From positions 4,092,001-4,156,000 of the forward strand of contig NW_025963879.1 in the NCBI RefSeq assembly GCF_023055435.1: a stretch of 64,000 nt of DNA, read 5' to 3'. Source of the DNA: Haliotis rufescens. Taxonomy: Eukaryota. The position numbers and the translations under genes are program-made. Below, piece by piece: positions 2,978-61,239 of the stretch (position 1 is the stretch's first letter; every line of letters begins with the position of its first letter). The notes beneath the pieces are model-generated. The model worked only from the letters and a program-made list of their open reading frames with translations. It was not told the origin of the DNA and did not search any database.

Positions 2978-3242
2978 GCTTTCATCTGCAAAAAATATTA
3001 GAAATCATGAATTCATCATCTGTGACTAAGGTGCCATCTGCGATATACTGTACAATACAGTACAATAATTATAGAGAAAGATTCATCAGGCGGTGTATGC
3101 GTAATACTTAATAATATTAATATATATTTATGAACAGTGCTTAAAATAATGAATACAGAGAAGGCAAAAAGTACGTATTCATTAAATATCAAATTCACAT
3201 AATCATGAAAAATGCCTATATGTGTGTTTTAGTTTAGAAATT

Positions 3243-3493
3243 TGTCCAAATTGACTCGTTCCTGCTTTTGGAAAGGTGTGAGCAACCTGGGAATCCATCG
3301 TGCAGACACCTTATGCATGTTTAAATTGTCATGGATGATTTTTTCCACAGACCCTACACTGATCTTGACATCTTGTGCTAACTGGCGAACAGTTATACGT
3401 CGGTCTGCCAATATGGCGGTCTCCACTTGATGGATAGTGTCCTCATCAATGGCTGAATGGGGGCGACCAGGAATGGCAGCTGTTTCCACAGAT
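3243..3493 (-). mobile_element. Internal mariner fragment, identical copy of 4423-4673
   Basis: 251-bp match, flanked by a 136-bp direct repeat (3104-3239 and 3492-3627). Confidence 0.9.
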
Positions 3494-3716
3494 ACTTAAT
3501 AATATTAATATATATTTATGAACAGTGCTTAAAATAATGAATACAGAGAAGGCAAAAAGTACGTATTCATTAAATATCAAATTCACATAATCATGAAAAA
3601 TGCCTATATGTGTGTTTTAGTTTAGAACTGTTATAAATAAGCTGTTCTATACAGAGTCAATTAATTGTAGTGAATGCACTAACTGACCGTGAGTTTAGCC
3701 GCATATGTGAAACATA

Positions 3717-4999
3717 CGAGGGGTGTTCATTAAAGATTTCCCCTGACCCACTTCCGATGGACCTAGTGGAATGAAACTTGGCATAGGTATTAATCTTTCT
3801 CCACATAGGAACCACCAAGAGTTACACACTTCTCTCATCGTTTTATACAACTATTGAGACCTCGCTTGTAAAAGCCCTCATTTTGCGTCTCAAACCAGGA
3901 CTTGACTTCAGAAATCAGTGTTTATCATCTGTGAAACGTTTAGCCTTCAAAAATGACTTCATTGTTGGAAAGAGGTGGAAGTCAGATGGTGCAAGGTCAG
4001 GAGAGTAAGGAGGATGTGGAAGGATTTCATAGCCACAGGACCGCGCTTCTGTCTCGGCAACATGAGAGTTGTGTACTGGAGCATTGTCTTGCAGGAGACG
4101 GACACCCTTGGTCAGCATGCCACTCCTCTTAAGCTTGATAGCGTCCCGCAATTTCCGCAGCAGTGAAGCATAATAAGCTCCTGTAATTGTGGTACCCTTT
4201 GCCAAGAAATCCATCATCACTACTCCGTGCTGGTCCCAAAACACCGTGAGCATGACCTTGCTTGCAGAGGGTTGGACACGTGCCTTCTTTGGGGGTGGTG
4301 ACTCCACATGCTTCCATTGCATCGACTGAACTTTAGTCTCAGGATCATAGTGATGGACCCATGTTTCATCCTGTGTGATAAGTCTGTCAAAAAGGTTTGC
4401 CTTTGGGGGGGGGGGGGGCACATGTCCAAATTGACTCGTTCCTGCTTTTGGAAAGGTGTGAGCAACCTGGGAATCCATCGTGCAGACACCTTATGCATGT
4501 TTAAATTGTCATGGATGATTTTTTCCACAGACCCTACACTGATCTTGACATCTTGTGCTAACTGGCGAACAGTTATACGTCGGTCTGCCAATATGGCGGT
4601 CTCCACTTGATGGATAGTGTCCTCATCAATGGCTGAATGGGGGCGACCAGGAATGGCAGCTGTTTCCACAGATGTCCGACCACACTTGAACTGGCGATGC
4701 CAGTGTTTAACAACGTCATATGATGGGGCATCTTCCCCATAAGTTGCTTTCATTTCATCGAAAGTTTCTTTTGGTGTGCGACCTTTCAAATAAAAAAACC
4801 TAATCACTGCTTGGTATTCTACTGGCTCCGTTGTCACACCCTACTCGATCATTACACCTGTAAAAGTGGTAAGATTAATAGTTCGGTGCTGGAAATTCAG
4901 ACATAACCCATAGATACACGTATCATTACGCATGTGAAATTTCAACCAAATATGATAACCCTAAGTGGTTTAGGGGAAATCTTTAATGAACACCCCTCG
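3717..4999 (-). mobile_element. Mariner (DD34D) transposon, full length, transposase frameshifted
   Basis: Perfect 28-bp TIRs CGAGGGGTGTTCATTAAAGATTTCCCCT with TA on both sides. Motifs WIPRLL, TQDETW, LQDNAPVH and YSPDLAPSDFHLF are split over ORFs 4220-4837 and 3915-4478, with the shift at the G14 run 4405-4418. Confidence 0.96.
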
Positions 5000-6148: not shown

Positions 6149-7499
6149 GTGATTTTGCTGTAGCCAGACATAAATTTGGTAAGCTAAATTGTATTAGATT
6201 GTCTTGAAAATTTGTACATCTGAACATAAATGGATTTTTTAATTAATAATGAATACTACTGTATTATATTGTCTTGAAAATTTGTACATCTGTATATAAA
6301 TGTAATTTTTAATTAATAATTAATATAAACCTATACTACTACATACATTTTTTGTGTTATATCTACCTAGACAGGCTGTAGTTTGGCTATAGTCAGTCAG
6401 TAAAAGTGAAACAGTCTATAGTGTTAATCCCCGTTGTTGTAGGGATTATCACGGGCTACTGATGTTTAAACTAGAATAATAGCTGCTGGCAAAGTGAGAA
6501 CACCCCCATAATAGATATGGTAAAGTATGGACGTAATCATTTCTGGTCACTGCAGCTGTGAGACAGTGACCCATCATGCAAGTCTGCCCAGCCTGGCTGA
6601 CACAAAGGGTCACACCATCAGGGAACCAGTGATTAGTGTGTCAACTTCACGTCCACACACTTAGTCAGTCCGACTGTCACATAAGGGTCGGTTAGGCAAC
6701 CTACTTGAATAAATTCTTAAATAATGACACAACCATCCACTGTTACAGCCGATCAACCGCTGACACCTTGGATGTTGTGATCTTTAGTTATGTGACGTAA
6801 TGAAGGCCTCAGTTGTATATATACGGCGGTCGGTGGTAGCAAACTTCGTGTGCGACATACGCTTGCAGTCGGAAAGCGCAAGTAAGTAAGGAAGCAAACT
6901 TCACTCTACTTCTACCGATTAAACGCCATCAACTCAGCAGCCATCTCTGTTCTTCAAGGTAAGACACTATTGACTTAAATTTTAACTTATTCTGTCAGCT
7001 ACGATCTTAATACGTTAGGTGTAGGTTAGATCTATTTCGACTATATCGTAGCGTTGGGGAAATTATCATTGACTTAATATCCAGACAATACTCCCTCTCG
7101 CGAACGTATATTTTTGTATATTAGTATACTAGTTGCACGGTAACATCCAAATATGAGTAAGTGTACCAATGTCAAAAACTTGTATATTCCTACATTCAGT
7201 GACACCTACTCATATCAATGATTTGCCTGCAACTTATAGTAGCAATGAAAAATGAGTCGGTTCCAACATTATATTATATTGATTGTTATAACGATATGTT
7301 GTTAAACATCCACGCATGACAGCGTGTACTGTTTTCTACTAGACATATTTTATCGTAATAAATGCCTATTAATAACCATCTGTTCACCCTTAAAATACAA
7401 CGTATTGTTTATCTATACAGTCATGTCATTATCTGTTGTACACCGATTATATAATAAAATCATACGTGTTGTACACGTATCGAATTACATGTATAACTT

Positions 7500-7893
7500 A
7501 AAGCCCATTTCACCTCATATAACCAGGTATACGATAAACCCCATTTCACCTCACCTAACCACGTATACGTTAAACCCCATTTCACCTCACCTAACCACGT
7601 ATACGTTAAACCCCATTTCACCTCACCTAACCACGTATACGTTAAACCCCATTTCACCCCACCTAACCACGTATACGTTAAACCCCATTTCACCTCACCT
7701 AACCACGTATACGTTAAACCCCATTTCACCCCACCTAACCACGTATACGTTAAACCCCATTTCACCTCACCTAACCACGTATACGTTAAACCCCATTTCA
7801 CCCCACCTAACCACGTATACGTTAAACCCCATTTCACCTCAACTAGCCACGTATACGCTAAACCCCATTTCACCTCACCTAACAACGTATACG
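7500..7893. repeat. 36-bp minisatellite (~11 copies)
   Basis: Unit AAACCCCATTTCACCTCACCTAACCACGTATACGTT. Confidence 0.97.
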
Positions 7894-8579
7894 GACTAGA
7901 ATCCTAATAGGAAGAGAGGTAAGTTGTGCATTACCTGTTTGCGATATATATATAGTATTTGACTGTAAATCTATGAACACCAACACTCGCTTGAAATAAT
8001 TACTTCTGTAACCCTTGAAATAGGGTGAGTGAGTGAGTTAAGATTTATAGTCACATCGGCAATATTTCAGCCATATCGTGACTAAATCAAGTTGGACAGT
8101 AATAATACATAAATATAGACATTAAAATCTGTCGACAAAGGACAGTAAAAACACTAGACCATCACAGATGTAGATTGTAAAACTAGCATAACATAATAAA
8201 ATTTGTAACAATTCATAACAATACACAATAAAAATGGGCTATAGATCACCAATAGCCAAAGGTAGGACACCATACTAGGTACCATGGGGACTTACGATAC
8301 TTCTGCTACCTACATGGTAACCCAGCAGGATTTACACCATCGCTCTGGCTACTGGTGATTGTCAGCAAGTTTAAGCCAAATCAGTTAAAAACAACAAGAA
8401 TTCTACGATTAAAAACATGGAAAATGAAAAATACTTTGAATGAAAATAGGACTTATGTACCCTCTCAGGGGGACAATTATTTTACGCTACTTCAACCCCC
8501 TTTGAAGGTACAGCCACTAACAATCACAGTTATATAATCATTTTACCAAATTAAAAGCACATACTTTTTACAATACATA

Positions 8580-20920: not shown

Positions 20921-21541
20921 TACAGATCTCTACACCTTGGCTTAATATTATTCAGAAATACCCCTCTGTCACCTACACCTTGTGCAAGCCAGACATGCCC
21001 CAATACATATACCGCCCCGATTGTTTCAATATCATGGGTCCGTGTTCATGGTTGTTGGGTTGGAGAAATCCATGTCGAAATCCAGTCGAGCCTGGGTTGT
21101 CAAAGGGGCATCATATCCATTATTCCCGGTAAGGGATGTTTGTTGGGCTCGGCTCAAAGCTGATCTTGGTTAGGTCAGACTGTTGTCAGATGGGCAACAG
21201 TGGAAACTAGTCCCAGTAAGGGACCTTGAATTTATATTTAACAGAACCAACTGTTAACAAAAGCAAACAATATGTCTCCACTGTTTGGGAGACGATTGTT
21301 AATACATTTGTATATACTTATGGGTTAATTAAAGGTGTAAAAGTTAATTTTGTCTTGTCATTTTGGATGGTTAACTAATCATCACTTCAGTTGTTGGTAG
21401 TCGAAAAGCCACGTTCAAACAACAGTTTTGTGGTTATATTACTTGGTAAGAAATGTCTTACGCTGAATATGCGGGCACACACATTTTTATTTATTTCTGA
21501 ATGCAAACATTTTCCTGTTTTCATACAGACCTATTCAGAAG

Positions 21542-33400: not shown

Positions 33401-34336
33401 AAATATTATGTTATTTTAATTAACAATACATTTATACCACTTTATATGAAGTGCAGTTATTTTTTTCTGCTAGTATATGAAGACTAACACAGTCTCTGTG
33501 GAATCTCAGCAAAATATAAAAATGCTCAGATGTAGCTTGGGACCAGGACCGAATGCGTCATTCAATGAGAAATGCTTGTACCTGCTCGTTGCAGATTCAT
33601 TTGATTCATTTGATTCATTCTGTGATACTTTGGAAATATACCCTCTTTTCTCAAATTCAGAGATTACCTGCCTGGGTAAAGCATTTGTCTTTGTTAAACA
33701 TTGTTTCAGTGCTGACAAGTCTTTGGAATGCCATGTCATGGTTATATGGCACCTCATTTCCATGGTAATCCTTCCTAGTAACGATTCTTCCTAAACACTA
33801 GTTGTTGCGCAGTGGAACTGAATATTTGAGCGCGGTTTAACTTAAAATGAAAACTAATCTAAAATTTGTATGACTAACCTTTTTTGAATGAAACCAGGAA
33901 CTAAACGTGATAACCTATTAAAAACTATGAAGATCTATAAGGAACTAAACGTGATTACCTGTTATTATGTGAAGGAAAGATGAATAAACCTCAAATGAAA
34001 GAAATTAAATGCTAATTCTAACAGTTACTCATAAGAGAGTCTTAACACTGTCTAACGCCATGTCTAACGCCATGTCTAACACCATCTGTCTAACCATCTC
34101 TGACCATCTCTGACCATCTAACTAACGAACTCTCTAACGAACTCTGACCAACTAACTAACCGATGCGCGCTACCGCCTTATATTTGCTCACAACCCTCAC
34201 ATTTCACGTGCAGTCACAGCCATACTTTGGTGTGTTCAGGCGATGCGATCGTTATGCATCGGGTGCGTTTTGGAGAACAGATTCTTTATTTAAAACTAAC
34301 ACGAGTGCACGTGAAGCGCGATCTATAGGCTCCGGG

Positions 34337-40568: not shown

Positions 40569-43500
40569 TTAGCTATACCTAATGCTAATCTAAACTAACA
40601 AAAGCCTAATACAAAACTAAAATATTCTAACCAGAGAAACCACGCTCTGCTACCAAATGTTGCGCAGTGGAACTGAATATTTGAGCGTGGTTTAACTTAA
40701 AATGAAAACTAATCTAAAATTTGTATGACTTACCTTTTTTGAATGAAACCAGGAACTAAACGTGATAACCTATTAAAAAACTATGAAGATCTATAAGGAA
40801 CTAAACGTGATTACCTGTTATTATGTGAAGGAAAGATGAATAAACCTCAAATGAAAGAAATTAAATGCTAATTCTAACAGTTACTCCTAAGGGAGTCTTA
40901 ACACTGTCTAACGCTATGTCTAACGCCATCTGTCTAACCATCTCTGACCATCTAACTAACGAACTCTCTAACGAATTCTGACCAACTAACTAACCGATGC
41001 GTGCTACCGCCTTATATTTGCTCACAACCCTCACATTTCACGTGCAGTCACAGCCATACTTTGGTGTGTTCAGGCGATGCGATCGTTATGCATCGGGTGC
41101 GTTTTGGAGAACAGATTCTTTATTTAAAACTAACACGAGTGCACGTGAAGCGCGATCTATAGGCTCCGGGTGCGTTTTGGAGCTCATTTCTAATGAACAG
41201 ACATGTCTTCAGAACACTAGTAATCCATGTGCTTTCTCTAGCGATCATTTCTCATTTGTACTCAGAATTAGTTTAGGATTATTTACTTCCTGAATCTCCC
41301 AAACGGTTCTCACTGGTGAAGATACCTTGGCATTAATACCTTGTGTATGATATACATATAAACAATGCATTTGTAAACTAAACTAAATGGTCTATAATGA
41401 TAATACAAGTCCACCCATGAGGAGTCCTTTCAGCAATTGGATCACCATAGGATCAAACGACTGGTGAAGCTGTATGTAATCAATTTCTATCAAGAGATTT
41501 ACTTGTGGATTCTATCCAACAACTTGGAAATGATACCATACATTGGCAGACCAGGCAGAGAGGATTGATCAGCTTGGGCTTATTTGATAAAACCAGCTGA
41601 CAATATTCTTGACAATCTTGTCTACTGTACAATACATCACACAGAATGGTTATCTCATTTGTTTGTCAAGGTTAACTTACTCACATCACCTCCTCCATGG
41701 GTTGGTCATATTATCACAAACACACATTTTTTCCATTTTGGGGAATCAAACTTCCAAAACCCCTTATCAATATCTGACAACAATGTTTGTGAAATAATTT
41801 ACATGTAACAGTTTGAGTGAGTACAAGCAAACAAATACAACATATTCACATTACATCCTTTACTATTGTTACCCAATATCTGTATTTTGTATTTTGTTCA
41901 AAGTCAAGAGTACCCTGGACTGTTTTTCGATACTGGTATATAATTGTTTTTACATAAAGTAACTGTTAATTACTTTAATAATGTGTTTCATGAACACAAA
42001 GCCCATACCTTACATGCCTGCCTTAAACTAGAAAATACATGCAACAGTAGTGACCTTCATGTGTATTGAAAATAATGAACTCTTGGCAGAAGCTGCATAA
42101 TGTCCTCACCATGTTTAAAGGTACATCTATCGCCTCAGTCAGCAGTATTTGTTTACTACATAAACACAGAAGTACAAAACATGACATCATGTAGATTCAG
42201 TGTTTCACTCAACCATGAAAGTGTCTGTAGTGTCAACACTATTCCATTGATCCAACACTTGCTGTGCCAGCGACAGCAATATTTACCATTCCCATTTATT
42301 TATAACATAAATGTTATGTATTCCTTGAATGAAATAAATTAAATACGATGACAACACGAAAGATATTTTGTTCTTGCACAACAATACGCATCTACCAATA
42401 ATATATTCTCCTGGTCATATATGGCTTCTTGGCTGAGAGAAACACTGAGAGTTTATTCATTTCAAAGAATGTCCTTCAAATAACAAGTTCATAGTCAATT
42501 TACTTCTGACAAATACATGGCAAAACAAATAATACAGAAGTCCTGTACAATTCAATAGAATGAAATCTAACTGAACATGAAATGAACGATGATGTATCTG
42601 GTCACACTTTACAATAATCCCATCTTGGAATAATACATACAATACTGAGACCTACTTGTCCCCATCCATACCCCTGCCCACACACACACACTTTCCCACA
42701 CCCACACCCACACCCACACACACACACACACACACACAGAGTGTTATTACCAAATACACAAAAAGCTGTACATAAACTGTGGGAAATTTGCCAACTTTTC
42801 AATATACATATTGGTAAATGGCAAACAAAAGCACATCAGCATCAATATGTGCCTTGCAGGAAACATTTGACAAGCAGGAACTATACGGCCATGAGAGGTC
42901 TCTCTGCTTTCATGAATGCTTTCAATCAGATGAAACTGACTATATTCAAAATTAATATGCATACCTATTGTATATGACTGAACACAGGAATACTGACATA
43001 ATCATGACAATAAAACTCTCTAGCAATTTTGATTGAATATCAGGGATGTTTACCAGAACTTTAATGATAATACTTAGAAAGGAGCATAGACTTATTTTTA
43101 AAAACTATATTCTGATATCGCTGAGAAGGCTCCACCATCTAGTAAACATATTTCAGAGCTGAGCACAATCATAACTATCCTTGAAAACAGTGTCCGATTT
43201 ACAGTTCCTTACAAATAGTCAAAAATCATTTTGGTGGTCCAGGTTGACGTGCTTACTGCAAACAATCACCCCTGGTGCAGCGGTGATTTAGCATAACAGC
43301 ACTGAAACAGGCTCATTTGCTTATCATGTGACTGCACTATTCTCTTGTTTGTAAACAAATGCTCTTATTCTGAAATCAGTACAGACTGGCCTAAGGCAAG
43401 ACTTTCAGAGCGTATTTCATATTGTTTAGCATAATTATATAGATATGCTACTACAACTGCAACAGTGAGGTGCATGACAATATATCTTTATACATCAAAG

Positions 43501-47572: not shown

Positions 47573-50500
47573 ATGTCATTTCTGAAGAAGTTTGGCCAAA
47601 GAAGCAGAGAAAGAGCTTTCACAGATCGTGCAAATCGAGAACAGGATCCAGATTCTGTGCTTGCAGACGACGATGATCGAGATCCTTTTTCCGTGAACAT
47701 CACTGGTACACTTGACCTTACGATACCTGATGACGAGTCGAACAACGCTACAACACCTACATATGGTAATTTACTTGTCGTTACGGACCTTCATTAATTC
47801 ATGATTTGTTTTCAATTTCAGTAGCAATTTCTGAAATGATATATAATCTTGCTCGCGGATCGGTAGATACTGTGACACTGATCGGTAGAAAATGTAGGAT
47901 TTTGAGATATTTTGAGGAAAACTAGGCTGTGTCTGGTCAGGATAGACTATTTTTTTCTTTTGTTTGTTTTGACTGATGACGGTAGTATTATGAAGAAGTA
48001 AGATAAACTTTGCCTTAGAATTATAATGAAGGGAAGGCATCTTATCAATCTCATTAAAATTAGATCTTACACTCCGATAATCTGCGTGAAGTTCCAAGGA
48101 CAACTCCAAATGAGGCTGTGTTGGGTGAATCTTCTAATCAACCAATCAGCATCAAGGCATGTGATTTCTCAGAACAAGTAAGCGATTCATTCAGACAAGC
48201 ATATCTGATTTCTGTATCTCAGAATCTATTGTGATTTGGAAGCTTTGATTGCAAAGAAAGCAGCACCGATATATTGTTGTGAATATTGTATACATCCTGT
48301 AATTTCTGAAAAGCGTGTGCTATGGAGGATATAAATGCTGAGATTGAAATTTCAGAATTTTGGTGGTAAAGAAATGAAGGCCAATTGTTTTTAGAAAGTT
48401 GACATCTGATTTGCTCCAGAACCCACGTGTCCTTCATTTTGATGAGGCAGTCACCTTCTATGGATAGTATGGATGTCCCTTTCTAGTTTGAGTCAATCTC
48501 ATTAAAATCAGATCTTCATTCATGCTACCGCTAAACAAAGATCTGAGGACATTCAATTAAGGGTCAAGCCTGAATGACCTAGACCAATGAAATGCCCTAA
48601 CATGAAGTTGGCATTAGCCACTCAAAAAGCAGCTTTCTCCAGCTATATGGGGCACTTGTTTCAAACTGGCTATTTCACTTTGAAATATATTCTGGCAAAT
48701 TCTTGATTCAAAATTTGAAAACAGGACAAATGAATATTATTGATGTCTAATTGATGGCTGAGATTGTCTGGTAGTACTTCCCATTGGCAATGCACAGTCT
48801 CTTCCGTTCCAAGGTTTATCTGTTTGAAGCGAGTGATAGACGATGGTTTTGACAGAGTCAGAATCATATAACTATGATTTGGAATACCTTGTGTTAACCT
48901 TTATGAGGTTGCATGATTAGAAAATACATTCCGAATGTCACTCTCCTGGTCTGGTAAGTAAAGCTCTAAATGATCAGATGGAGGTCATTCTGACGTGACC
49001 CGTAATGGGATGTCTTCATATCTTTGTTTAGTGGTAGTGAGAACTATGATCTGAATTTAGTGAGTCTTAATTTGAGTTAACCTCAAATGGTAACTCATTT
49101 ACCTCAGTAAATCTGTCACTGGCCTACACAGTCAAAGCAGGATTAGACCATGTCTTTAACATGTTAAACCAACATTTTCATTAAGGTTGACAATTTTTCG
49201 ATTTTGGTTCATAAAATGTGTTTATATTATTATTTATACATAGCATATATTTCTGGTGTAGTTGTAGCAGGGTAGTGGAAGACCATTTGAATAAAACTGC
49301 TAACACACCTATATTTTATGTACTAACTAGTCTCTGCAATCTTGTCTTTGCAACAAAGATTTGAACAAACTCTTTGTAAATAACACTACCTTGTTATGCT
49401 TATTTTGATCTTTCTCAAAACTAATAAACTTTGGATAGAAATCCCTTATTCCATCAGTTAAGGGGAAGCAACTCTATATTATGGCAATATTCTGAACTTT
49501 GGATACAGATCACAAGGAGAGCAGAAATAATTTATCTTGAAAGTCCTGAATTACAATTTCTAAGATGCAGTAAAGTGCACTTTTTGATAATGAGTTGACA
49601 TCATGGTAAAAATAATTGGGTTTCAGATGTGAGAAATGTATTATTTGCTAGCGGCTTTTCATATGTATGGATTTCCCAAGATGTGGGAGATCCACAGTTA
49701 TTTCTCTATTCATTTAAGCATAAACTAAAGGATATATTTTATCAACAGTGGCACCAAAGTATTTCTGAATCACTTTATCTTAGCAATTACAGCAAAGTAA
49801 AATCATTGTTACAAACTGAAAGATATTTAACTTGTTTAAATGATAAAAGTTTAATCAGAGATTTATTATAAACTTAGAATTTCATTGCACAATTTTAATG
49901 TAAATGTATGTCGCAGGTCCAAAGACGGTGATATTGTGAACTCTATTTGTACACACTGTTCATCTGGAGAAGTAGAGGATGAATACCATGTAGAGGATGA
50001 ATACCATGTCCCCATTTGAAACATATTCCCATTTAAGGTATAAATTTCTCCCAATGTTGCAAGGTATTTTTAAAGACCGTCAGTTAATGATAAATCTGCT
50101 AAACTCTGAAATTCCTGATATGATCCATGCTGTTTCTGTATTCGTGAAACATGTCTTTACAATGAGGAATGTGTAACTAGATTTAAAATCTAATCATGTA
50201 CATCATCTGCATTGTACTATGGGTCTTGATGCCTAAATTACTGAATAAACTGTCTGTCTGTCGGTCTGATATCATGACGCTGTTCAAAGTACTTCCCGCA
50301 TGATCTTAAGTATCCTTGGTAACATTGTTCTTGCATTACTCTTAAGCAAGATGGCACATCCACATCAATTATCAATCAGTGTAATAGTTTCTTTAAACTT
50401 GTCAAATAATTGAATGTTATTCCCTGAAATATGGCATGATGATGTCAACCATCTTTCATACCAGGGAGTTATGCCAGACATATTCAAACCACTGTGTTCG

Positions 50501-53500
50501 TGCCACAGTAGCTACAAAGTTTCCCTAGGCAGGCGTTGGTGCCCTAGGAATTATGTCTGTCTCTGGACACTGGAAAAAGCATTTTTTCAAACATTTCATA
50601 ACCAGGTGTGCACCTATTGCTCAGTGTAGGGCATTTAGCAACATACTGCAGTCAAATAAAACAGCTCTTCCTTCACCAAGTTCGTCTCATGGCGACCAAT
50701 ACATCATATTAGTGGCTAACATTAGTGGGGGAAACAAAGTTGCAACTTTTGTAACAGAAAACACCTCAACTCACAAGAACCAGTGACACAGAATGTCTAT
50801 GTTGGCATCTGTTAGCTTGGTCATCATGTGATTTAAGTTAAGCAAATTAATCAATAAACAGAGCTTTAAACCCTTCTCATTGCTTGATAGGTTTATAAAT
50901 AATCATACACTGAACGGATTATATGTGATTTAGTTAACTATAAACTACCCTTTTGTGTGGTGTTGTATTATGTTTATTACATACTGTGTCTCTTATAGTA
51001 ACGTACAATGTGTGAAGCCCATTTCAGGTGTCCCCCGCCGTGATATTGCTGGAATATAGCTAAAAGCGGTGTAAAACCATACTCACTCACTCACTTAAAG
51101 GGCAAGTTCACACGGAAATTAACCTATTTTTCTTGTACTTTTTCCACATTAAAAGTGATAACCTAGAAGTGTCAAAGACAAAAATATAAAAATATCACAA
51201 TTAATTAACATATTTTTCGCATTAAAACGATTTATATTTTTCACATTTACCAAGTGTTCTATTTCCACAACAAAAACACCATGGCTTATGCCCCTTGCAA
51301 TATGACGTCATTGGTGCCAATTGATAAACATTATGACGTCATCATGCTTTGTTAGAGCCGCTTCACGTGGTGTAGGTACAGGTGTGTGATTCTAGCGTCT
51401 CAGATGCCAGCCAGCATAGTGTTATGCTGAGTCACCACTGCGCCGGAGTGTGTCGTAGGCCATGTTGTTTTACCGCAAACTGGTACTTGATATCTTTTGC
51501 GTTGAGAATAGACAGGGACCCAGTTGAATTGGCACCAATTACGTCATAATCTAAGGGGGATAACTCAGGCCTGTTTAGCTCGAAAAACGAAGGCCTCATA
51601 ACGGCATATCATTTTCACACTATTGTGAGCTTCCTACTTTCACTGTGAAAAAAATGAGTGTATATTTTCAAACACAGATACTAATTAATTCTAAAATTGC
51701 GTTTTGTTTAGAAAAAGAAAGAAAGTGATTTTTGCGTGTACACTTCCCCTTTAAAACAAGGGTGGAGGCAAGTTGGTTGAACAGCCTGCCAGTTCAAGGA
51801 TTTTCAATTTACAGCATTGTCTATTACTGATTTTATTTTAAACCTATCTGCAATAAAGCACAAGGTTAGCATTACATTCAGCATCTTAGCAAAGTAATAA
51901 AGTTTGTTCTACCCCCATGTGTAGTATAAAGTATGGTTTTGCCCTGAACTAATGTAACGTCAATGCTTTAACTATAATAATACTAAAACTATACTTTATT
52001 ACACTACGCTTGGGGGTAGAGCGAACTTTATTTCTTAGTTAGATGTGCAGTGCTGACAAGTCGGCACCATTGCAAGTAACAAATGAGTTGATTAGTTTCA
52101 AGTTAGGTGTTGATAATTTGAACTTATTTGTCAGTTTGACTTTTAACTGTTGCAGATGCTCAGTCCCCACACTTGTTGCCTCTCAATGTTGATCCACCAG
52201 GGACTGTCCATGTTGCATTTGAAGTGACATCCGCTGAGGTTATTAAAGATCAAAGATCCAGCTATGTTGTAAGTCGGTAGTAGAAATAGTTTTTGAGATG
52301 AGATAGCCAGTACTGCTATGTTAAATGCTACATCAGCAAGTTCTTGTTTTTGTGTTGAGTGTGTCTGTAGATGGGATGTGTGTCAGAGAGTGTTCCCAGG
52401 AGTAGGAATGTAACAATATATAATGAAGTATCGCAGTTGTTTGCCCTATGATAGTAATATGTCAACAGGAATTTATATATACCAATAGTATCATCGATAA
52501 TCTGCATAACAATCAATAGTCTCAATAGTTACAATTAGAAATAAAGGACGAGTGGGAGTTGTTTATCATACAATAAAACACTGAAGGGGCAAAAAGCCAT
52601 GAGTGGTGCAGGATATTTTAATAATGAGGACCCCCTCAATGGAATCTGACCTCCGCAATGTCGGACAAGTCCATTTTATGCACAGGTGGGTATTTCCCAC
52701 ATTTTACAATCTTCCCGTCGATTACCTGTACCTTTTCTCCCAATACGGATTGTCATATCTCTCCCGCTTTTGGATGTGACCATTTGGCCGTAGCGTTTAT
52801 CTGCGTTGCCCAGGTACATCTGTGGGGAACAACTCTGTAGACTCTCCCCTCTCAAAAAAAATGTTGCCCAGTATACGACATCATCAAGTTGCGTGTGCAT
52901 GTTTGAGTCTCCAGAAATGACGTCATAACAGAACAGTGTTTTATTGTGAAATAAACTACCCTTCTTTCTTCATTGTTCTTTGCAAATTATCGTGTAGCTA
53001 TCTTATATTAATAAGTAAGGCATATATTATTCGCTTCAAATCTGCCTGAGTGGTTGGTTAGCAAGGATTACAACAACTTCAGATTAGAGGTACTTTCCTT
53101 GGGTTTGAGTAATGACATGGCTGAAAATATCCATCTTTGAAATTGTCATTAATACTTTGTTCATTTCTATTTCATTGATTTATTTTATTATCAAGCCTTA
53201 AAGTTGGTTTCCTACCAATGCTATACAATCACAATAGTAAAATTAGCCCCAATAGTGAGCCCTACCAAAGAGTATACCTGTTTCTCCTGCAGCTTGAATA
53301 TGTTACATGATGATTAGATTATCATGACTATTAGACTATATTAGTAACCCCATTGTTGACATTATATACTAGCATATATTGCCTTGTGGTGTCAGAGCAG
53401 ATGTCGAAATTATAAACAATGTCAATAATGCCAGGGGCATAAAGTCATATGACTTATAGATCAGGTTCACCTTCAGAATACTTGATATTCATCTGCCATG

Positions 53501-56500
53501 GTTTTGTATGTTACTTATAAATATAGCAGAATACGACAGCATGACTTTTTTTTATAATAGGGCAATGAAACTCAAAATAAGCAGAAAAATGCCACCACTT
53601 GCATTTGTAGTGTTTCATGTGAACACACCTTAGAACTGAATATCAAAGCAATTCATCAACATTGAAAATCGGACTTTGAAATATTCCTAAAACATAATGG
53701 CATGTGGCTACCTCATCAGTGACATCCATTTGGGACTTATTTAAACAAACACATATTGGAAACTAAAAATGACATTTCCTTACGATAGCATTTATTTCAA
53801 GTTGTGTGTGTGGGTGTGTGCGTTAAGCCCCCCAAACCCCGTTATTTTTGTGAGGCAGCTAAAAATGGTGGCAAAGAAACTTAGAAACCGGTTCTAAGGA
53901 AGGAGCTTGTGCACATTCGTTACCAATATGGCGAAAGGTATCTGATATTCTGTATTCTAGACCTAGTAAGTAGGCAAAATGAGAAGAAAATGGATAGCAA
54001 CTACTTCTATTCTTTGTCAAATTGCGATCCATAAAAAGTGTCATGTATTCATCTAATATAGTTTATTGAGATGTTTATCTTATCAAACATATTTGCAAGG
54101 AATGTTTGGCTCACTTTAGTTCATTCAAGAATATGCCCAGTCACCTGTCTAGGTTTGTTACTGAAGGCTCTTTAGACACCCTATGGGAAGCTGAACAGCA
54201 TGAACAGACTGATGTGGAGCAGTATTGCTGCATGATGTGGAGCATGTTCAAAGCACATGGTATGAATGTGACAAGGTAGGAACACAATGTCACAATATTA
54301 ATGTCTGAAACTTAATATAATTATTTTTATTTACTGCTTGTTCTTGACAGAGAAGAGCTGTGTGGGGTCTTGCTGAAGAAAAAGTTGTTCCAACTGGTTG
54401 TGTGGTTTAGCCCATCACACAGCTCCCACTTGACCATGGAAGTGATGACGTCACTGATCAGCACATTACTGCTGTCACCTCAAGAGAACAGTCAGCTGTT
54501 TGAGCTCTCAGCTGTTATGCATTTGAATCCTTTGCGTGTTGTAACAACACTATTGTTCTTGTGAATTATACTCTTCTCATGGTTTGTGTCTTCTATATTT
54601 CATAAGACTTTTACCATTACTTTAATATTTAATGCTTGATGGTGGCTTTTTATCACGGTAAATATCAGCCACATGTTGATCCAATTAGCCATTTTGATTT
54701 CATTGCGTGGTCACGTTTCTTTTGTGTCATGCAGTCTGTATTGTTTGTGTTGCTTGGTATTTCAATTTATTTATGGTATATTATTGTTATTAAAATGGTG
54801 GTTTTTCGCGTTCCTTTTGTAAGCTTATTATTAAACCCACAGGGTTGGGATTGAGATTATAGAATACACAATGGGTTTGAGAACACATTGTGATTACACC
54901 TCTGCTATCATTGCAGATACATGCTACGTTGTACCAAGTGCCATGGTAATAAGTCTGTGTGGGATCCTTATCCTTTGTGATTGAACTGTACTGACATCTG
55001 CTCCACGGCTACTAAGTGTAGCGTTTGTCTCCCACTTTCTTACACAGTGATCTCCAGGTATCTTGGAAACAACAGACACAACAGGCCTGTAAACTTGAAG
55101 ATGTCACTCCCACCAGTCACGGTCTCCTCCTCTTGAGGTGAGAAGCCTCCAGTTTCCACTCCTTTTTTGTGCAGCTTCGTTGGAGATATCGTCTACTACT
55201 TCCTCCCCTGCTCAGATGCTGACTTCCATTTTAAAGACATCCCTTACACTGTTGACTCCTCTACCCTCTGTGCTGATATACTCTTCTTTGACTACTACGA
55301 TGACACTAGACTTGGTGCCGACGACTCTGCGATCATCAACTGTCAGCTTATTCGGACCTGCAGCTTTTCATCCAGCACCTCCATAGGTGCCCTATATGGA
55401 TCCATCCTGGCCTCGGTTCCCAGCTCCTCTAGTACCTCTGTCTTCTGCAACGCTGTCGGCACCCCTGGCACCTCAGGTCTCAGTGACGCTCCCGGCGCCT
55501 CAGACGGCGCCTCCTGTAGATTTTGGTGGTGCCCTGACAGTCCACTCTACCTGCTCTGAGAGTTCTGCCTATCCTGGCTCCTCATTACATCGTAGTTGTC
55601 AAATTGTCATGCTCTAGATGCTGTTCCTGGAGCCGATCTCCTGTTCAGCACTCTGAGGAATATCTCTCTGGTTCATTGTAAGGCTCATATGTCCTGGCTT
55701 ACGAAGGCTCTCCCCTGGACATGAACACTCACCTCGGCCTTAATCAAGATGCCGACTGGTTAACAGACTGCCTAGCTGAAGTTGCTCTGTCTTAGGGACC
55801 CAATGTTGACAAAAAATAAACCATCTGGTGTCACCCCATGCCTCCAGATCCAATGAGCAAGGATATGATTGCGGCCTTAGATGAGGACTTCTCCAAGTTG
55901 TCTCTCACTCCCTCTTTCAAAGCACCACAATGCAAAGAAAGATGGCATTCCGAACCACGCCTTTGACATGTCACATCTTAGATGACGACCTTCACTGTAT
56001 GACGAGATCTAAACGTACTCACGTGGATGAAACAGCTGGTCTTTTTGTAACAGAGGCCATGCTGGGACTGTTCTCATAGCAGGAGCAGGGACCACAAGGG
56101 CAAATGATGAAGCGATGGACACCAATGACTGGGAACTCCCATCCTGTTGTTGAAACTCCTGCATGTGGGAGACTAGGGCACGATTGGCAGAGTTGGGACA
56201 TCCTGGGGGACCCATGCGTCACCAACATCCTGCGCTAGAGATATTGGCTCTCACTGAGCAACTACCCACCTCTGATGTTGTCATCTGTGGCAGATGCCTA
56301 CCCCCCCTACTCAACAGCAGCTACACCTCACAAACAACAACATGCTGCCAGAGGCCATAGAGATTTACACTCCCCGGCAAAAACACCAGGCTTCAACTCC
56401 CTAATATTCCTTGTCCCCAAGAACGTCTCGGACTTACTCAGAATAATTTCCACATGTCTGCATTAAGGCTGGTTAAGTCCAAAATCCAGGCCAACGATTC

Positions 56501-58176
56501 ACTGATCAGCCTCGACATCCAGGACGATTACTTATGTGCCGATCCATCCCAGATACAAGAAATTCCTCTGTTTCTCATCTTCAATGGTATCCATTATCAA
56601 TGGGCAGTGCTCCCATTTGGCATTTTCAGCTATATACATGCATCACCAAAACGAGAGCCACCTTCCTCGACCTGAGGAACATTCAATTTGAGGAGTATAT
56701 AGACAATTGCTTCCTGAACCACCAGAACATGGCAACTCTCATCCTCCACAGGGATTTTACTCATCAGCTGGGTTGGATCTTCAACATGCAGAAGTCGGAG
56801 CTCATGCCTTCGTTCAACCTGCAATTAATAGGCGGCCTCTTCCAGACCAACCTAGATCTCCTCTTTGTCCAGGGTCCTTCCAAAGAATAGATCGACCCAG
56901 AGCCTTCCTCTGATTTTGATAGCTCTTGGTGGCCAGCAAGGGGCTGCTTCGTGGATCACAAGAAGATGTCTTCCATCAAGGCCCTCAAACTGCCAGGTTG
57001 GCCCAACATGTTGATCCATCCTCACAGCAGGCTGCCTTACCCATCTCCGGACAGGTTTCATCTTTACATCTGCAAAGAGCCCTAAGGGCCAAAGGTTACT
57101 TGGCAAGGGCAGCGAAGTCAATCATCTCTATGGCGACAAGTGGCGCTCTTATGAGAGTTTCTGCAAGGAGAAACACCAGGATCTCCCCTCTGTGTTGCCC
57201 TAATTCTTGCCTGAATTCCGGACACAGTCTTCGCCTGCCACTACCTATGAGACGTTAATTTGAATACGTGGAAGGCACTCAGAGCTTTAGCCCTTTGGTG
57301 GTTGCCCAGCAAATCACCTCCCTGAAGTGCCATTGACTCTTCCCAATGATGGGGGCCGACCTTTCGACCTCTCTGGTGCATGTCACCCAGACTAGAAGGT
57401 TTATATGCTACGTCCATGGCCTCGGTACGTCGATCTATTCTCCCGTCAGTAGGAAGGAGTGTGATAACCACTCTAAGTTCCCTGAGGGAGCTTTCATCCC
57501 TGACTTTGACCCTCCCTCACATCTTGGGATGAATCAAGTTGCTGATTGGATGGAGGATAGGTTGGCTTGTATAGTGCCATCTCCAAGACCAGACGTGGAC
57601 AAGGACACAATCTGGTCCCACCAAATGTCCATTCCTTCAGATCCTATGTTAACAGTTCTCATCTCGGCGCTCGATGAGGACTTTGCGAAGCTCTCACTCA
57701 CTCTGTCTTTTAAAGAACTTAGTTATCAGCAGGATGACTTCCTGGTTCACTTATTTGGTGTGGTTAATGGCACGACCTTCAATTGAATGACCCATTCATC
57801 GAAGCCTGTGATGATCCGCATGCCCGATACTCGACTGTCCCTCAACAACTCTGGAAATTCTACGTTTTCTTAAGCCCCCCTCAACTCTTGCCTCGTCCTT
57901 GACGGCTATTGATCAGGACTAACCCTAATAGGATCGAGACTGCCTCCGTGGTCTAGTGGTAGAGCGCCCGCCCGGAGAGCAGGTCCAGGGTTCGATCCCC
58001 AGCCGCGTCATACCAAAAGACGTTAATAGATGGTACTTGTTGTTACCCTGTCTGGCGCTCAACATTAAGGGCTAAAACAAGGACTGATTGGTTCGGAGTT
58101 AGTATACTGTGTCTGAGTGGGGTATTCATGTTAAACTGCAGCATGGTATCTCTGTGCTAGCACTATAAATCGGCAT

Positions 58177-58242
<66 letters not shown>

Positions 58243-61239
58243 AGTCTGTGAAATCAGGGGACTCTCCACTCCTCCTCTCTGCTGTCTTAGACATTCAGCT
58301 TCTTCCAATTTGGTAGACCTTCTCGACCTGCACTTCCTAGTTCAACACATTCCAGGGTGCCGGAACGTGTTGGCGTATGCGGTGTCCTGACTGGACAGGG
58401 TGGCTCCCACAGAATGGAAGTTACATCCTGAGGTTTTCACCATGATTTGCCGACGGATCGACCATCTCAGCAGTGACCTATTTGCCATAGTCAAAACATC
58501 CAGCTGTGTAATTAATCAGTCCAGTTCAGGATCCGCAAGCACTGGCGATCGATGCTCTCAGCGTTCACTGTGAAGGATTAAAAGCATACGCTTTTCCACC
58601 TCTGGTACTCCTTCCCAGGGTTTTACAAAAGATCAGGGAAACTCAGAACCTAGTTCTGATTTTGGTCGCACCTTGGTGACTGGGGAGAAGTTGGTTTGTT
58701 GAGCTCAGAAATCTTGCCAGGGATGATCCTCTTGAACTTACGGTTTGGCCATACCTACTGCTCCACCCACACAGCAGGTTACTGCATCCTACCCCCGACA
58801 GGTTTCGTCTGCACGCTTGGTACATAAGAAGAGAACCTTAAGTGTCAAGGGCTACTCATTGAGGGCGGCCAAGGCCATAGCCTTGGCACATAGTCCTTCC
58901 ACACAAGGGCTTCACCCCAATTTGAATTTTTATTCTTCCTACGCAGCCATAGTCACCTCAGAGGCTCTACTATTTTAACTATTTTTATGACCTCATCAAG
59001 AAAAAGTTGTTTTTTTTCCCCCTGGCTATGGCAGCTCGGATTAGCAAGCTACATGCCTTAGACGTCTACAGTGTCTGGTGTGAACATGGAGCTCATGTGG
59101 CCATTCATCTTTGGCTCTGCTGGGATTTCATTGCCAAGAATCAACTCCCTGCGCAGACAGGTCATTCACCATCTCTCCCATCTCATCGATCATGGGATTA
59201 GAAGATGAAAGGGAACTTTTGTAATGCCAAGTGCGTGATTTGCGATGTTTCTTCAGACATTCGAAAACACAATGTTCAGGAAACGCTTTTTTATGCCAGT
59301 TTTTCCTACTTCGCAGACAGAGGTTAACTGTAATACTATCTCCATTTGGCTGCAGGCAGTCATTCTCCAGGCATAAGAAGCGGATTGTAAGCAAATAACC
59401 ATTGCATGGCTCTCCATAGCAACTGCTTCATCAAGTCTATTATGGAAGGGTGTATTTAGTGCACTGATACCGTCTTTGCCAGCCATTATCTACGTGATGT
59501 GGCCTTAGAGGATGTTGCTGGCGTCCATAGTTTTGGTCTCTTGGTGGTGGCACAACATGTCACAAACCCCTGACGTCATTGATTCTCTCAGACCTGCAAG
59601 CTGGCCCATTGAACTCTCTGTTTTTTGTGAGCCCAGATTAGAGGGTTCACATGCTTTCTGAATTAGCTTGGTAGGTGAGTTTTAGATTCTGGCTCACGCT
59701 TTTTTCTATTACTGTTCCTTTACATGGGTTTCTCGTTTTCTTCACTCTCTCGTTTTCCTTCTGACAGGAATGGTCATTGTCATCGCTCAGGCTGCTGCAC
59801 TGGTTACTGCACTGGTTACTTGGACCTTGACAAGGATTTACTTGGGATCACATCAGAAGATATGCCCTCCTCCGTACCGTCTGATGAAGATGCTTTAAGG
59901 AGTGATGCTGGATAAGTTAAAAAAATTAGTAAAATCTAAATATTTTTTACATTTGTACATATACTTATCATGCATTACTTTGTCTAAGTGCCCTCCTGTC
60001 GCAGTGCTACCTCCCCCTCAAAGTCGTCAGATGTGTACGTTCTAAAGCAGTAATGTGCTCATACAGGACATCGCCACTTCCAGGTCACATGGCAGCTGTG
60101 GCAGCTGTGGGTACTGCTACGCTACTGGTTGGAGCAACTTCTTCAGCAGCTGCCCCTCTCACACCTTCATCTTTCTGTAAAAAAACCCAGCAATAAATGC
60201 ATTAAGGAGTAATGCAGGATAGATATACAAATGTAAAAAATATTTAGATTTTACTTATATTAAGTTTCAGTCATTAATATTGTGACATTGTGTTCCTACC
60301 TTGTCACATTCATACCATGTGCTTTGAACATGCTCCACATCATGCAGCAATACTGCTCCACATCAGTCTGTTCATGCTGTTCAGCTTCCCATATATATTA
60401 AGATTGAATGGATCTTCTTCCACAAAGGAACATTTACTAGAATGGAATTGAAAAGACAGCATTTTTGTCAACTTACTTACAAATTACTGCAACCTAGGAT
60501 AAGATGAGTTAACATGTGCTTGACGATTCATAACCATGGTAACCTGAATTCACCAACATTGTTTCAGTTATACACAATCCTGGTATCCAGCAGCTCTGGC
60601 GTGGAAAGGTTGCCAACCACGGTTGACCGTAGATATTCAGACTTTGAGAAACTCAACTCAGTACTTAAAAAAAAGCACCCCCACATTATGGAAGATGTAT
60701 CTTTTCCAAGGAAATTGTTAGTTGGTAATTTTAGCAGTGAAACCATTGCACATCGGAGCAGATCCTTTGAGCAATATCTAAGCCATGTGTTTTCAGTTTA
60801 CGAGTTGCGGTACTCAAATGAATTGGCAGCATTTTTCTACCTTAACGATGCAAAAGAAGGATACTCATTGTTATGCAGTGAACAATATCTGGAAGCAATT
60901 TCTCTGTTTGAGAAATGTCTACCTGTGTGTGAAAAACTGTATGGTGGTGGTCATCTAAGAGTTGTCTCCCTTCTGCATGCCTTGGTTGTGTGTTATCATG
61001 CAATAGAGAAACTGAACAAGGCTCAGAAGTATGCCGAGGTTGCACTAAAGAGCACCAATGACCCAGTGGTGGATGAACCCAGTATTGCCCTCATCAAACT
61101 GTCCATCCGTCTGTGCTGGTCTTTGGGCAAGGACAAACAAGACCTTGAGAAGAGGCTACAGGAGTTAAAGGCCAGGAAGATCAATGTGGATAATGTGCCC
61201 GATCTGAAGGATATTGTCAAACTGAACACATTGGTCTGA
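47573..61239 (+). CDS. SNX21: Sorting nexin 20/21-like (PX domain + helical PXB/TPR-like region), 3 exons, 325 aa
   Basis: Exons 47573-47765, 52156-52268 and 60568-61239, GT-AG, phases 1 and 0. AFEVTSAEVIKD..SYVLYTI, RRYSDFEKL, FPRKLLVGNFSSETIAHRSRSFEQYL. Confidence 0.88.
49600..50262 (+). mobile_element. 5'-truncated, decayed LINE 3' fragment
   Basis: NWVSDVRNVLFASGFSYVW-like peptide, CTHC..EVEDEYH zinc finger remnant, AATAAA followed by a (CTGT)n tail. Confidence 0.7.
51003..51094 (+). mobile_element. 5'-truncated SINE copy with (ACTC)n tail
   Basis: Matches the 3' half of 29878-30029(-). Confidence 0.8.
51099..51750. mobile_element. TTAA-flanked MITE (Kolobok-like)
   Basis: TTAA-AGGGCAAGTTCACACG ... 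CGTGTACACTTCCCCT-TTAA, with an internal inverted repeat at ~51286-51322 and ~51527-51562. Confidence 0.7.
54182..54320 (+). repeat. Left arm of 139-bp inverted repeat
   Basis: Reverse complement of 60255-60393 with one mismatch. Confidence 0.97.
54321..60254 (+). mobile_element. Decayed DIRS-type tyrosine-recombinase retrotransposon in SNX intron 2
   Basis: Diverged ITRs at ~54325-54472 and ~60046-60200. ICR-like 59928-59978 is complementary to 60208-60255. RT remnants SLDIQD, YQWAVLPFG, YIDN; RNase H HIPGCRNVLA; methyltransferase-like DLFA..YAFPP; recombinase ARISKLHAL..FASHYLRD. Confidence 0.85.
57938..58238 (+). mobile_element. tRNA-derived SINE (Meta-domain type) with (CA)n tail, nested in DIRS
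   Basis: A box TGGTCTAGTGGT, B box GGTTCGATCCC, then GTCATACCAAAAGAC..TGGTACTTGTTG..CATTAAGGG core. Confidence 0.8.
60255..60393 (-). repeat. Right arm of 139-bp inverted repeat
   Basis: Reverse complement of 54182-54320 with one mismatch. Confidence 0.97.

What the first reader, a model, noticed from the sequence alone, without database searches (positions are those of the whole stretch)
54182..60393. Old DIRS element sits in the exact centre of a palindrome with near-identical arms
Seen: arms 54182-54320 and 60255-60393 are 138/139 identical and abut the DIRS ends. Removing the DIRS leaves a spacer-less 278-bp palindrome (..CTTAATATAA|TTATATTAAG..), with TTAT at both junctions and TA at the outer ends. 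The DIRS ORFs are shattered and its own ITRs are visibly diverged, so the arms look much younger than the thing they enclose. Inference: (a) arm-to-arm gene conversion or selection for a long pre-mRNA stem that loops out ~6 kb just 174 nt before SNX exon 3; (b) a young TA-flanked foldback transposon carrying a dead DIRS as cargo; or (c) recombinase targeting of cruciform DNA.
Basis: partly seen in the sequence, partly recalled or inferred. Interest (0 to 1): 0.7.

Follow-up and report, generated by a model that had tools for sequence, protein, structure and literature searches.

The report
Mirror copy flanking dead abalone retrotransposons
Two near-identical mirror-image 139-base arms flank a pair of dead jumping-gene remnants inside an abalone intron; the second arm is likely a DNA-repair copy of the first, made after the jumping genes landed and probably touched up once since, and nothing yet shows that it has a function.

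Summary
The arms are real (138/139) and both outer junctions also occur in a sister species, so this is not mis-assembly. They are not a young transposon: the arm is a fragment of an old repeat (8 other copies, 72-82%) whose homology runs past the left arm only, so the right arm is the local copy. The enclosed 'DIRS' is two different DIRS1-like remnants fused, so its terminal-repeat divergence is no clock; both remnants are still old. It sits 2-5 bases off the centre of a 20-bp AT-rich palindrome; 0 of 39 related copies have flanking arms. Best reading: after insertion, a break at the right end primed on the other half of the split palindrome 5.9 kb away and copied about 130 bases (0.55; an inversion variant adds 0.18). 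A derived base shared by both arms of this species points to later arm-to-arm conversion, so 'long palindrome first' stays open (0.17). The arm changes between species at the neutral rate; RNA function is untested. The scan noted a similar fold-back scar in another genome. One-locus example of known processes; interest 0.3.

The parts
47573..47764 (+). SNX21-like gene, first coding exon (approximate ends from tblastn)
   Evidence: P0001 residues 1-64, 100%
52155..52271 (+). SNX21-like gene, second coding exon (approximate ends); the intron that holds the feature starts behind it
   Evidence: P0001 residues 65-103
54177..54319 (+). Fragment of an old dispersed repeat; cut off at its AT-rich run, the family's continuation is missing from the window
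   Evidence: 8 other copies at 72-82%; homology through 54177-54181; continuation not found in the window
54182..54320 (+). Left arm (the original; template of the copy)
   Evidence: derived T at 54304 against A in 4 of 5 family copies
54311..54322 (.). Left part of the 20-bp AT-rich palindrome that the DIRS insertion split
   Evidence: rebuilt target site has perfect 10-bp arms, no spacer; the 8-mer at 54311 has its nearest other copies on this strand at 20941 and 62768
54323..57431 (+). DIRS1-like remnant alpha: left terminal repeat (about 27 nt missing at 54328/54329), gag, RT, MT-region and YR remnants
   Evidence: its 5' end is 80-90% like one subfamily and 69-76% like the other
57438..60255 (+). 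DIRS1-like remnant beta: gag part, MT region, YR, internal complementary region, right terminal repeat
   Evidence: its 3' end is 79-85% like the other subfamily
57938..58239 (+). Dispersed repeat with a tRNA-like head (by eye) and a CA tail inserted in remnant beta
   Evidence: two 73-74% copies in L007; ARAGORN finds no tRNA gene
59890..59979 (+). Internal complementary region of remnant beta; predicts the terminus TACTA followed by ATT
   Evidence: 49 of 58 columns complementary to 60208-60261
60255..60393 (-). Right arm (inverted copy of the left arm)
   Evidence: stops short of the family homology that continues beyond the left arm; keeps the family base at the one mismatch
60256..60264 (+). 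Inner copy of the 9-bp direct repeat
60394..60402 (+). Outer copy of the 9-bp direct repeat = right part of the split palindrome; first base T here, A in organism B
60568..61239 (+). SNX21-like gene, last coding exon (PX and TPR domains), intact

Best explanation
The right arm is likely a one-off DNA-repair copy of the left flank, made after two DIRS1-like elements had split a 20-bp AT-rich palindrome in this intron, and the arms were probably homogenised at least once afterwards. Steps: (1, shown) the left arm is part of an old repeat and the right arm stops where a copy would. (2, shown by the family's junction rule) the DIRS target was a perfect 20-bp palindrome, whose halves now lie at the two ends, 5.9 kb apart and inverted. 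(3, inferred) a break just right of the DIRS left a 3' end ending in ATATTAAG; on the resected strand it folded back to CTTAATAT at the left junction, possibly helped by the partly complementary terminal repeats next to it, and a polymerase copied about 130 nt of flank. (4, inferred) the new end was joined to the other broken end, which left the 8-9-bp direct repeat around the copy. (5, shown) both outer junctions exist in organism B, about 1.8% diverged, so the event predates that split. (6, inferred) a later conversion or template switch in this species' lineage copied at least one new base from one arm to the other, so arm identity understates the age. No function is shown; the arms would pair in the pre-mRNA as a by-product.
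For: Arm is not a young family. Left-only continuation of family homology. Direct repeat at 60256-60264 and 60394-60402. 28 of 31 copies with an intact TTAC end continue TA, and this copy's own internal complementary region predicts A, yet the inner junction reads TACT-T (the base expected from copying the left junction), while organism B has the canonical A just outside the arm. 0 of 39 two-ended copies have flanking arms (best score 12 against 136 here). The remnants are old: internal region against terminus 5/54 mismatches against 1/139 in the arms (Fisher p=0.007); no copy closer than 84% over 300 bp among 60 loci. Terminal repeats of similar length and spacing decay with age in this genome (Spearman 0.84 over 40 copies; all 16 old copies at 65-88%), so long-term upkeep by conversion is not the rule. 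Yeast precedent: fold-back insertions of 10 to over 150 bp primed by an imperfect 10-bp inverted microhomology and joined with 0-5 bp homology (PMC11724301, section 15 read). Left and right junction regions pair better than shuffles (-79.7 against -21.8 +/- 4.0 kcal/mol).
Against: The loop is 5.9 kb against 41 nt in the yeast case. No allele without the right arm was found, so the order of events is inferred. Evidence of conversion weakens the clock and helps the palindrome-first rival. An inversion with a one-sided inverted duplication gives the same final sequence, and the 27-nt loss next to the left junction would suit a breakpoint there. Replication template switches in which the return point precedes the departure point were not seen in human-chimp data (PMC5453318, passages), so the model needs break repair, not a plain fork switch. 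The junction-base argument rests on one base in one contig of organism B, and base 60394 seems to have a third state in run X11 (inferred from contig ends).
Confidence: 0.55

Rival explanations
1. Inversion variant: the DIRS block first lay in the opposite orientation and was flipped, after insertion, by one long template switch between the palindrome halves (order 3-1-2-4) or by a staggered left break, which duplicated the 139-bp left flank in inverted form.
For: Gives the same final sequence and explains the direct repeat without re-copying. Order 3-1-2-4 makes an inverted repeat around an inverted spacer and is 23% of short events in human-chimp (PMC5453318, passages). One-sided inverted duplications of 46 bp to 1.9 kb are common at fly inversion breakpoints (PMC1885836, passages). 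The 27-nt loss sits 6 bases inside the left junction.
Against: Needs a 6-kb switched tract or two breaks; needs the non-canonical T at the inner right junction to be a separate change (1 of 31 copies shows it).
Confidence: 0.18
2. Palindrome first: a short-range fold-back made a spacer-less 278-bp palindrome, the DIRS elements integrated near its AT-rich centre (perhaps a cruciform), and repeated arm-to-arm conversion has kept the arms alike since.
For: Short-range fold-back is the commoner event; junction anatomy allows it; conversion after the species split is indicated at 54274 and, indirectly, at a second unlisted site in the outer 30 bases (counts of other letters and contig ends).
Against: Needs upkeep over several times the species-split time, whereas 16 of 16 old copies show terminal repeats decayed to 65-88%; the 54304/60271 mismatch appears to predate the split and was not repaired; depth of the arm contig in organism B (1.3-1.5 times single copy) fits arms that differ at 1-2 more sites; 0 of 39 copies and 0 of 22 targets show long palindromes.
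Confidence: 0.17
3. The arm pair is kept by selection because the 138-bp pre-mRNA stem loops out 5.9 kb of sense-strand DIRS sequence and protects splicing or prevents early polyadenylation of the SNX21-like transcript (an overlay on any origin).
For: Both arms lie in one intron, 174 nt from the acceptor; predicted duplex -258.6 kcal/mol, which follows from the identity alone; five AATAAA/ATTAAA hexamers lie in the loop; present in two species.
Against: Arm sequence changes between species at the neutral rate (2/139 against 31/1684, p=1.0); the arms in organism B probably differ from each other; no exon lies between the arms.
Confidence: 0.07
4. RNA-templated variant: the same primer annealed to the gene's own pre-mRNA and a reverse transcriptase made the copy, staggered nicks giving the 9-bp repeat.
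For: The template strand is the sense strand of the SNX21-like intron, so the product would be the same; the repeat length resembles a target duplication (recalled, no call).
Against: No poly(A) or other retroposition mark in the sequence; DNA fold-back needs no extra enzyme.
Confidence: 0.04
5. A young TA-flanked foldback transposon carrying dead DIRS cargo, independent insertions of a young repeat, or mis-assembly.
For: Near-identical inverted ends around 5.9 kb. A nearby control shows that such pairs can arise from a high-copy repeat (L092).
Against: Only two copies above 82% (the search scores best candidates only, 10 of 10 here); left TA lies inside the old repeat; the alpha/beta junction has no second copy among 40 scored candidates; runs X8 and X11 give an arm contig at 2.3-2.8 times flank depth that stops one base before the mismatch, and right-junction contigs exist in X8, X11 and X15.
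Confidence: 0.02

Closest known systems
Fold-back templated inverted insertions at double-strand breaks (yeast; PMC11724301, abstract and section 15 read)
   Same: Inverted copy of nearby flank, about 10-bp inverted microhomology at the priming junction, little or no homology at the return junction, length within the reported 10 to over 150 bp.
   Different: Loop of 5.9 kb instead of 41 nt; the two halves of the priming repeat were separated by transposon insertion; a fixed germline event inferred from sequence, not induced.
Four-point template switch model, type 3-1-2-4 (PMC5453318, passages read)
   Same: Creates an inverted repeat from one event; the inversion variant here has this order.
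   Different: Described for short-range events; the fold-back reading here needs the return to precede the departure, an order not observed there.
Inverted duplications at inversion breakpoints by staggered breaks (Drosophila; PMC1885836, passages read)
   Same: One-sided inverted duplication of 46 bp to 1.9 kb of flank around an inner segment.
   Different: An inversion is not shown here; the inner segment is only 5.9 kb of dead retrotransposon.
DIRS1-like retrotransposons (PMC3266345 and PMC7192593, passages read)
   Same: Inverted terminal repeats, internal complementary region, right extension, ATT-type junction, no target duplication, RT/RNase H and tyrosine recombinase in relatives; reported tendency of DIRS-1 to insert into existing copies fits the two-piece build.
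   Different: Two fused, decayed remnants rather than one element; flanking arms are not a family trait (0 of 39).
Template switching or conversion that repairs stems (PMC8794818, abstract read); arm-to-arm conversion in sex-chromosome palindromes (recalled; 10.1101/710046 seen as a search listing only)
   Same: A change present in both arms of one lineage.
   Different: Arms of 139 bp with a 5.9-kb spacer and no known function; evidence is one seen site and one inferred site.

Membership tests
DIRS1-like retrotransposon (enclosed DNA) | Inverted terminal repeats | tested here: met
   108 of 149 aligned bases complementary, but the two ends come from different subfamilies; young relatives 93-99%
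DIRS1-like retrotransposon (enclosed DNA) | Internal complementary region matching both termini, ATT-type junction | tested here: met
   definition from PMC3266345 passages
DIRS1-like retrotransposon (enclosed DNA) | RT, RNase H and tyrosine recombinase coding regions | tested here: met
   No direct Pfam hit in the window's fragments; broken frames match P0028 (RVT_1) and ORFs of L145/L146 with RVT_1, RT_RNaseH and Phage_integrase; the RNase H part itself is not matched in the window
DIRS1-like retrotransposon (enclosed DNA) | One element from end to end | tested here: not met
   gag, MT-region and YR remnants occur twice, 62-71% alike, joined at 57431-57438
Foldback or Tc1/mariner-type TIR transposon | Dispersed family with near-identical ends | tested here: not met
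Foldback or Tc1/mariner-type TIR transposon | Target site duplication outside both ends | tested here: not met
   left TA is inside the old repeat
Fold-back templated inverted insertion | Insert is an inverted copy of local DNA with donor left in place | tested here: met
Fold-back templated inverted insertion | Inverted microhomology at the priming junction | tested here: met
   8 of 8, split 20-bp palindrome
Fold-back templated inverted insertion | Pre-event allele lacking only the insert | tested here: inconclusive
   organism B already has both outer junctions; organism C run covers only 53936-54099; no abalone allele in metagenome contigs
Inversion with staggered-break duplication | Inner segment reversed against the ancestral allele | not testable with these tools
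   no outgroup assembly; short-read contigs cannot orient the spacer across 139-bp arms
Arm-to-arm gene conversion | Derived change shared by both arms in one lineage | tested here: inconclusive
   54274: A in both arms here, G in organism B's arm contig and in 4 of 6 family copies; a back-change would hit such a site with about 12/136 chance or less; organism B's right arm was not read separately
Functional intronic RNA stem | Pairing in vivo, editing, small RNAs or a splicing effect | not testable with these tools
   no run on record as RNA among the holders

The most novel reading that the evidence does not exclude
A DIRS tyrosine recombinase integrated into the centre of a 278-bp cruciform-forming palindrome, and the separated arms have since been kept paired by repeated conversion under selection for a pre-mRNA stem that loops 5.9 kb of sense-strand retrotransposon out of the SNX21-like intron: a host 'clamp' that neutralises an intronic insertion.
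Probability: 0.07. Interest if true: 0.65.

Novelty: new member of a known kind. Interest (0 to 1): 0.3.

Why it matters
If the best reading holds, it is a natural germline example of fold-back repair across a 5.9-kb loop: a transposon that splits a short palindrome leaves matching primer and template at its two ends, and one repair event then grows a long inverted repeat outward. That is a route to new long double-stranded intron RNA and a warning that near-identical arms around a transposon need not be transposon ends, and that arm identity is a poor clock once conversion acts. It is a single locus with no shown function. If the novel case held, it would give the first hint of structure-guided DIRS integration (the recombinase's specificity is stated to be untested in PMC7192593, passage) and of a host stem that tames an insertion.

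Tried and rejected
DIRS integration makes or seeks long palindromes as a habit: rejected (0 of 39 two-ended copies taken from 60 fetched loci; the other 21 loci were dropped because only one end, or no clear pair of ends, lay within 10 kb). Terminal-repeat divergence of this copy as a clock (108/149): dropped after the two-piece build was found. A second example of arms among the 60 loci: 22 near-perfect inverted pairs, 20 are terminal repeats of young DIRS copies, one is a local hairpin (L089, not followed), one is two copies of a high-copy repeat (L092). Pfam on the window's and young copies' open frames and on X-read-through frames: no informative hit; PDB sequence search and a pairwise comparison: nothing. 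Small RNA: run X21 laid 0 reads, which is no test; no RNA holder is on record. Run X12 has no contig over the right outer junction, at 3-7-fold depth: uninformative. Metagenome search for an outgroup allele gave one unrelated 36% match. No second haplotype of the right flank in the assembly. DIRS's own cDNA fold-back as the source: rejected by reasoning, it would extend the left end from the right, the opposite polarity. Literature: searches listed no paper on a templated inverted copy flanking a DIRS element or on DIRS integration at palindrome centres (listings only; subscription journals are not covered; no supplements were read). Earlier notes near this place: none.

Full report
Observation. 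The arms 54182-54320 and 60255-60393 are 138/139 complementary, the mismatch being 54304/60271; they are the longest inverted pair in the window. The last exon's protein is identical to P0001, which its source names a sorting nexin-21-like protein of Haliotis rufescens; its coding exons map to about 47573-47764, 52155-52271 and 60568-61239, so the feature fills most of an 8.3-kb intron and ends 174 nt before the acceptor.

Not mis-assembly. In runs X8 and X11 of this species the arm forms one contig, 60272-60393, at 2.75 and 2.26 times flank depth, ending one base before the mismatch, and separate contigs run from the arm's outer end into the right flank; X12 holds the left-arm version. X8 shares a sample with a possible source of the assembly; X11 and X12 are not so marked. 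In organism B (runs X15, X16) the left flank contig ends at 54211 and, in X15, the right flank contig starts at 60364, the mirror position, so both outer junctions exist; the DIRS remnants there are orthologous, 18 differences in 972 bases. The inner right junction was not among the listed contigs (tables cut, high-copy words), and no long reads were available.

What the arm is. A genome search gives the two arms and 8 other copies at 72-82%. Family homology continues through 54177-54181 on the left in 5 of 5 copies that reach there and not on the right; the family's continuation past the inner end is absent from the window. At the mismatch the right arm keeps the base of 4 of 5 family copies. 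So the left arm is an old repeat fragment in place and the right arm is a local inverted copy. The right flank is single-copy.

What lies between. Terminal repeats, an internal complementary region and RT and recombinase remnants make it DIRS1-like (definition in PMC3266345, passages). But gag, MT-region and YR remnants occur twice, 62-71% alike; the 5' end matches one subfamily at 80-90% and the 3' end another at 79-85%; and none of 40 scored candidates shares the join at 57431-57438. I infer two head-to-tail insertions at one site followed by a deletion; DIRS-1 is reported to insert into existing copies (PMC7192593, passage). Both pieces are still old: 5 of 54 aligned bases differ between the internal region and its own terminus, against 1 of 139 in the arms (p=0.007), and no fetched copy is closer than 84% over 300 bases.

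Junctions. Family copies begin at ATT plus a T run and end in TACTA plus a trinucleotide. By this rule the element starts at 54323, and joining the left flank to the outer right flank (from 60395) rebuilds a perfect 20-bp palindrome, while 0 of 22 other rebuilt targets exceed 7-bp arms. The insertion is 2-5 bases off its centre. TATATTAAG is directly repeated at 60256-60264 and 60394-60402. The inner right junction reads TACT-T where 28 of 31 copies and this copy's own internal region give TACT-A; organism B has that A just outside the arm. This is what an arm inserted into the finished DIRS terminus would leave, though it rests on single bases. None of 39 two-ended copies has flanking arms.

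Age and conversion. The arm differs between species at 2/139, like flank and DIRS (31/1684, p=1.0); one mismatch between arms is compatible with an origin near the split (p=0.27) and not with 9% or 16% neutral divergence (3e-5, 8e-10). However, at 54274 both arms here carry A while organism B's arm contig has G, the family majority; only 12 of 136 scored arm sites differ from the family majority, so a chance back-change is unlikely. The counts of other letters (3 against either arm) imply that organism B's left arm shares the T at 54304 and that a further difference lies in the outer 30 bases, shared by both of its arms; this second point is indirect. Depth of that contig, 1.3-1.5 times single copy, fits arms that still differ at one or two more sites. 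I read this as one conversion tract in this species' lineage. Against long-term upkeep, terminal-repeat identity tracks copy age over 40 copies (rho 0.84) and all 16 old copies have decayed to 65-88%. In X11 the arm contig is one base longer at the outer end and the flank contig one base shorter, which suggests a 140-bp arm pair in that animal (inferred).

Mechanism. Most likely a break just right of the DIRS, fold-back of the 3' end to the other half of the split palindrome, about 130 nt of synthesis and end joining, as in yeast fold-back insertions (PMC11724301, section 15) but across 5.9 kb (0.55). A flip of the DIRS block with one-sided duplication gives the same sequence (PMC5453318 passages; PMC1885836 passages) (0.18). 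Both place the arm after the insertion. Palindrome-first with repeated conversion is weaker but open (0.17). Selection for an RNA stem has no support and no test (0.07 as an overlay). Small inverted triplications (PMC13334657, abstract) and stem-repairing template switches (PMC8794818, abstract) are related known processes.

Verdict. A real, two-species, single-locus repair scar with a hint of later conversion; a new member of a known kind with an unusual geometry. Earlier AI notes describe a fold-back scar in another genome and arm homogenisation elsewhere in this one; I did not check them and they are not evidence. Interest 0.3.

Noticed in passing
window 57431-57438: Join between two DIRS1-like remnants of different subfamilies; no other copy of the join among 40 scored candidates.
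   Followed up: yes
window 60394: Base just outside the right arm is T here and in X8, A in organism B, and apparently a third base in X11 that would lengthen the inverted repeat by one (inferred from contig ends).
   Followed up: partly
window 54328-54329: About 27 nt of the left terminal repeat, including a small hairpin, are missing; organism B's contig crosses this place without a gap.
   Followed up: partly
window 57938-58239: Dispersed repeat with tRNA-like head (by eye) and CA tail inside remnant beta; two copies in L007; not called by ARAGORN.
   Followed up: partly
window 33803-34336 and 40658-41170: Direct repeats of about 530 bp, 95-99% alike in pieces, 6.85 kb apart, starting near TGTTG: LTR-like pair.
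   Followed up: no
window 3104-3627 and 4423-4673: Perfect direct repeats of 136 bp and 251 bp: very recent duplication or an assembly feature.
   Followed up: no
window 24650 to beyond 26350; 7416-7965: A 27-bp minisatellite with over 100 units and a 36-bp tandem array.
   Followed up: no
window 53990-54052: Piece of a hairpin-like dispersed repeat; a longer copy of it interrupts the arm's family member in L007.
   Followed up: no
L058-L085 (23 loci): Young DIRS1-like subfamily, 96-100% alike at the 3' end, with near-perfect terminal repeats but, in the copies checked (L067, L068, L084), no open frame above 223 codons: likely non-autonomous.
   Followed up: partly
L010:1-458 and 2218-2679; L089:1973-2056: A 462-bp inverted pair at 87% and an 84-bp near-perfect hairpin.
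   Followed up: no
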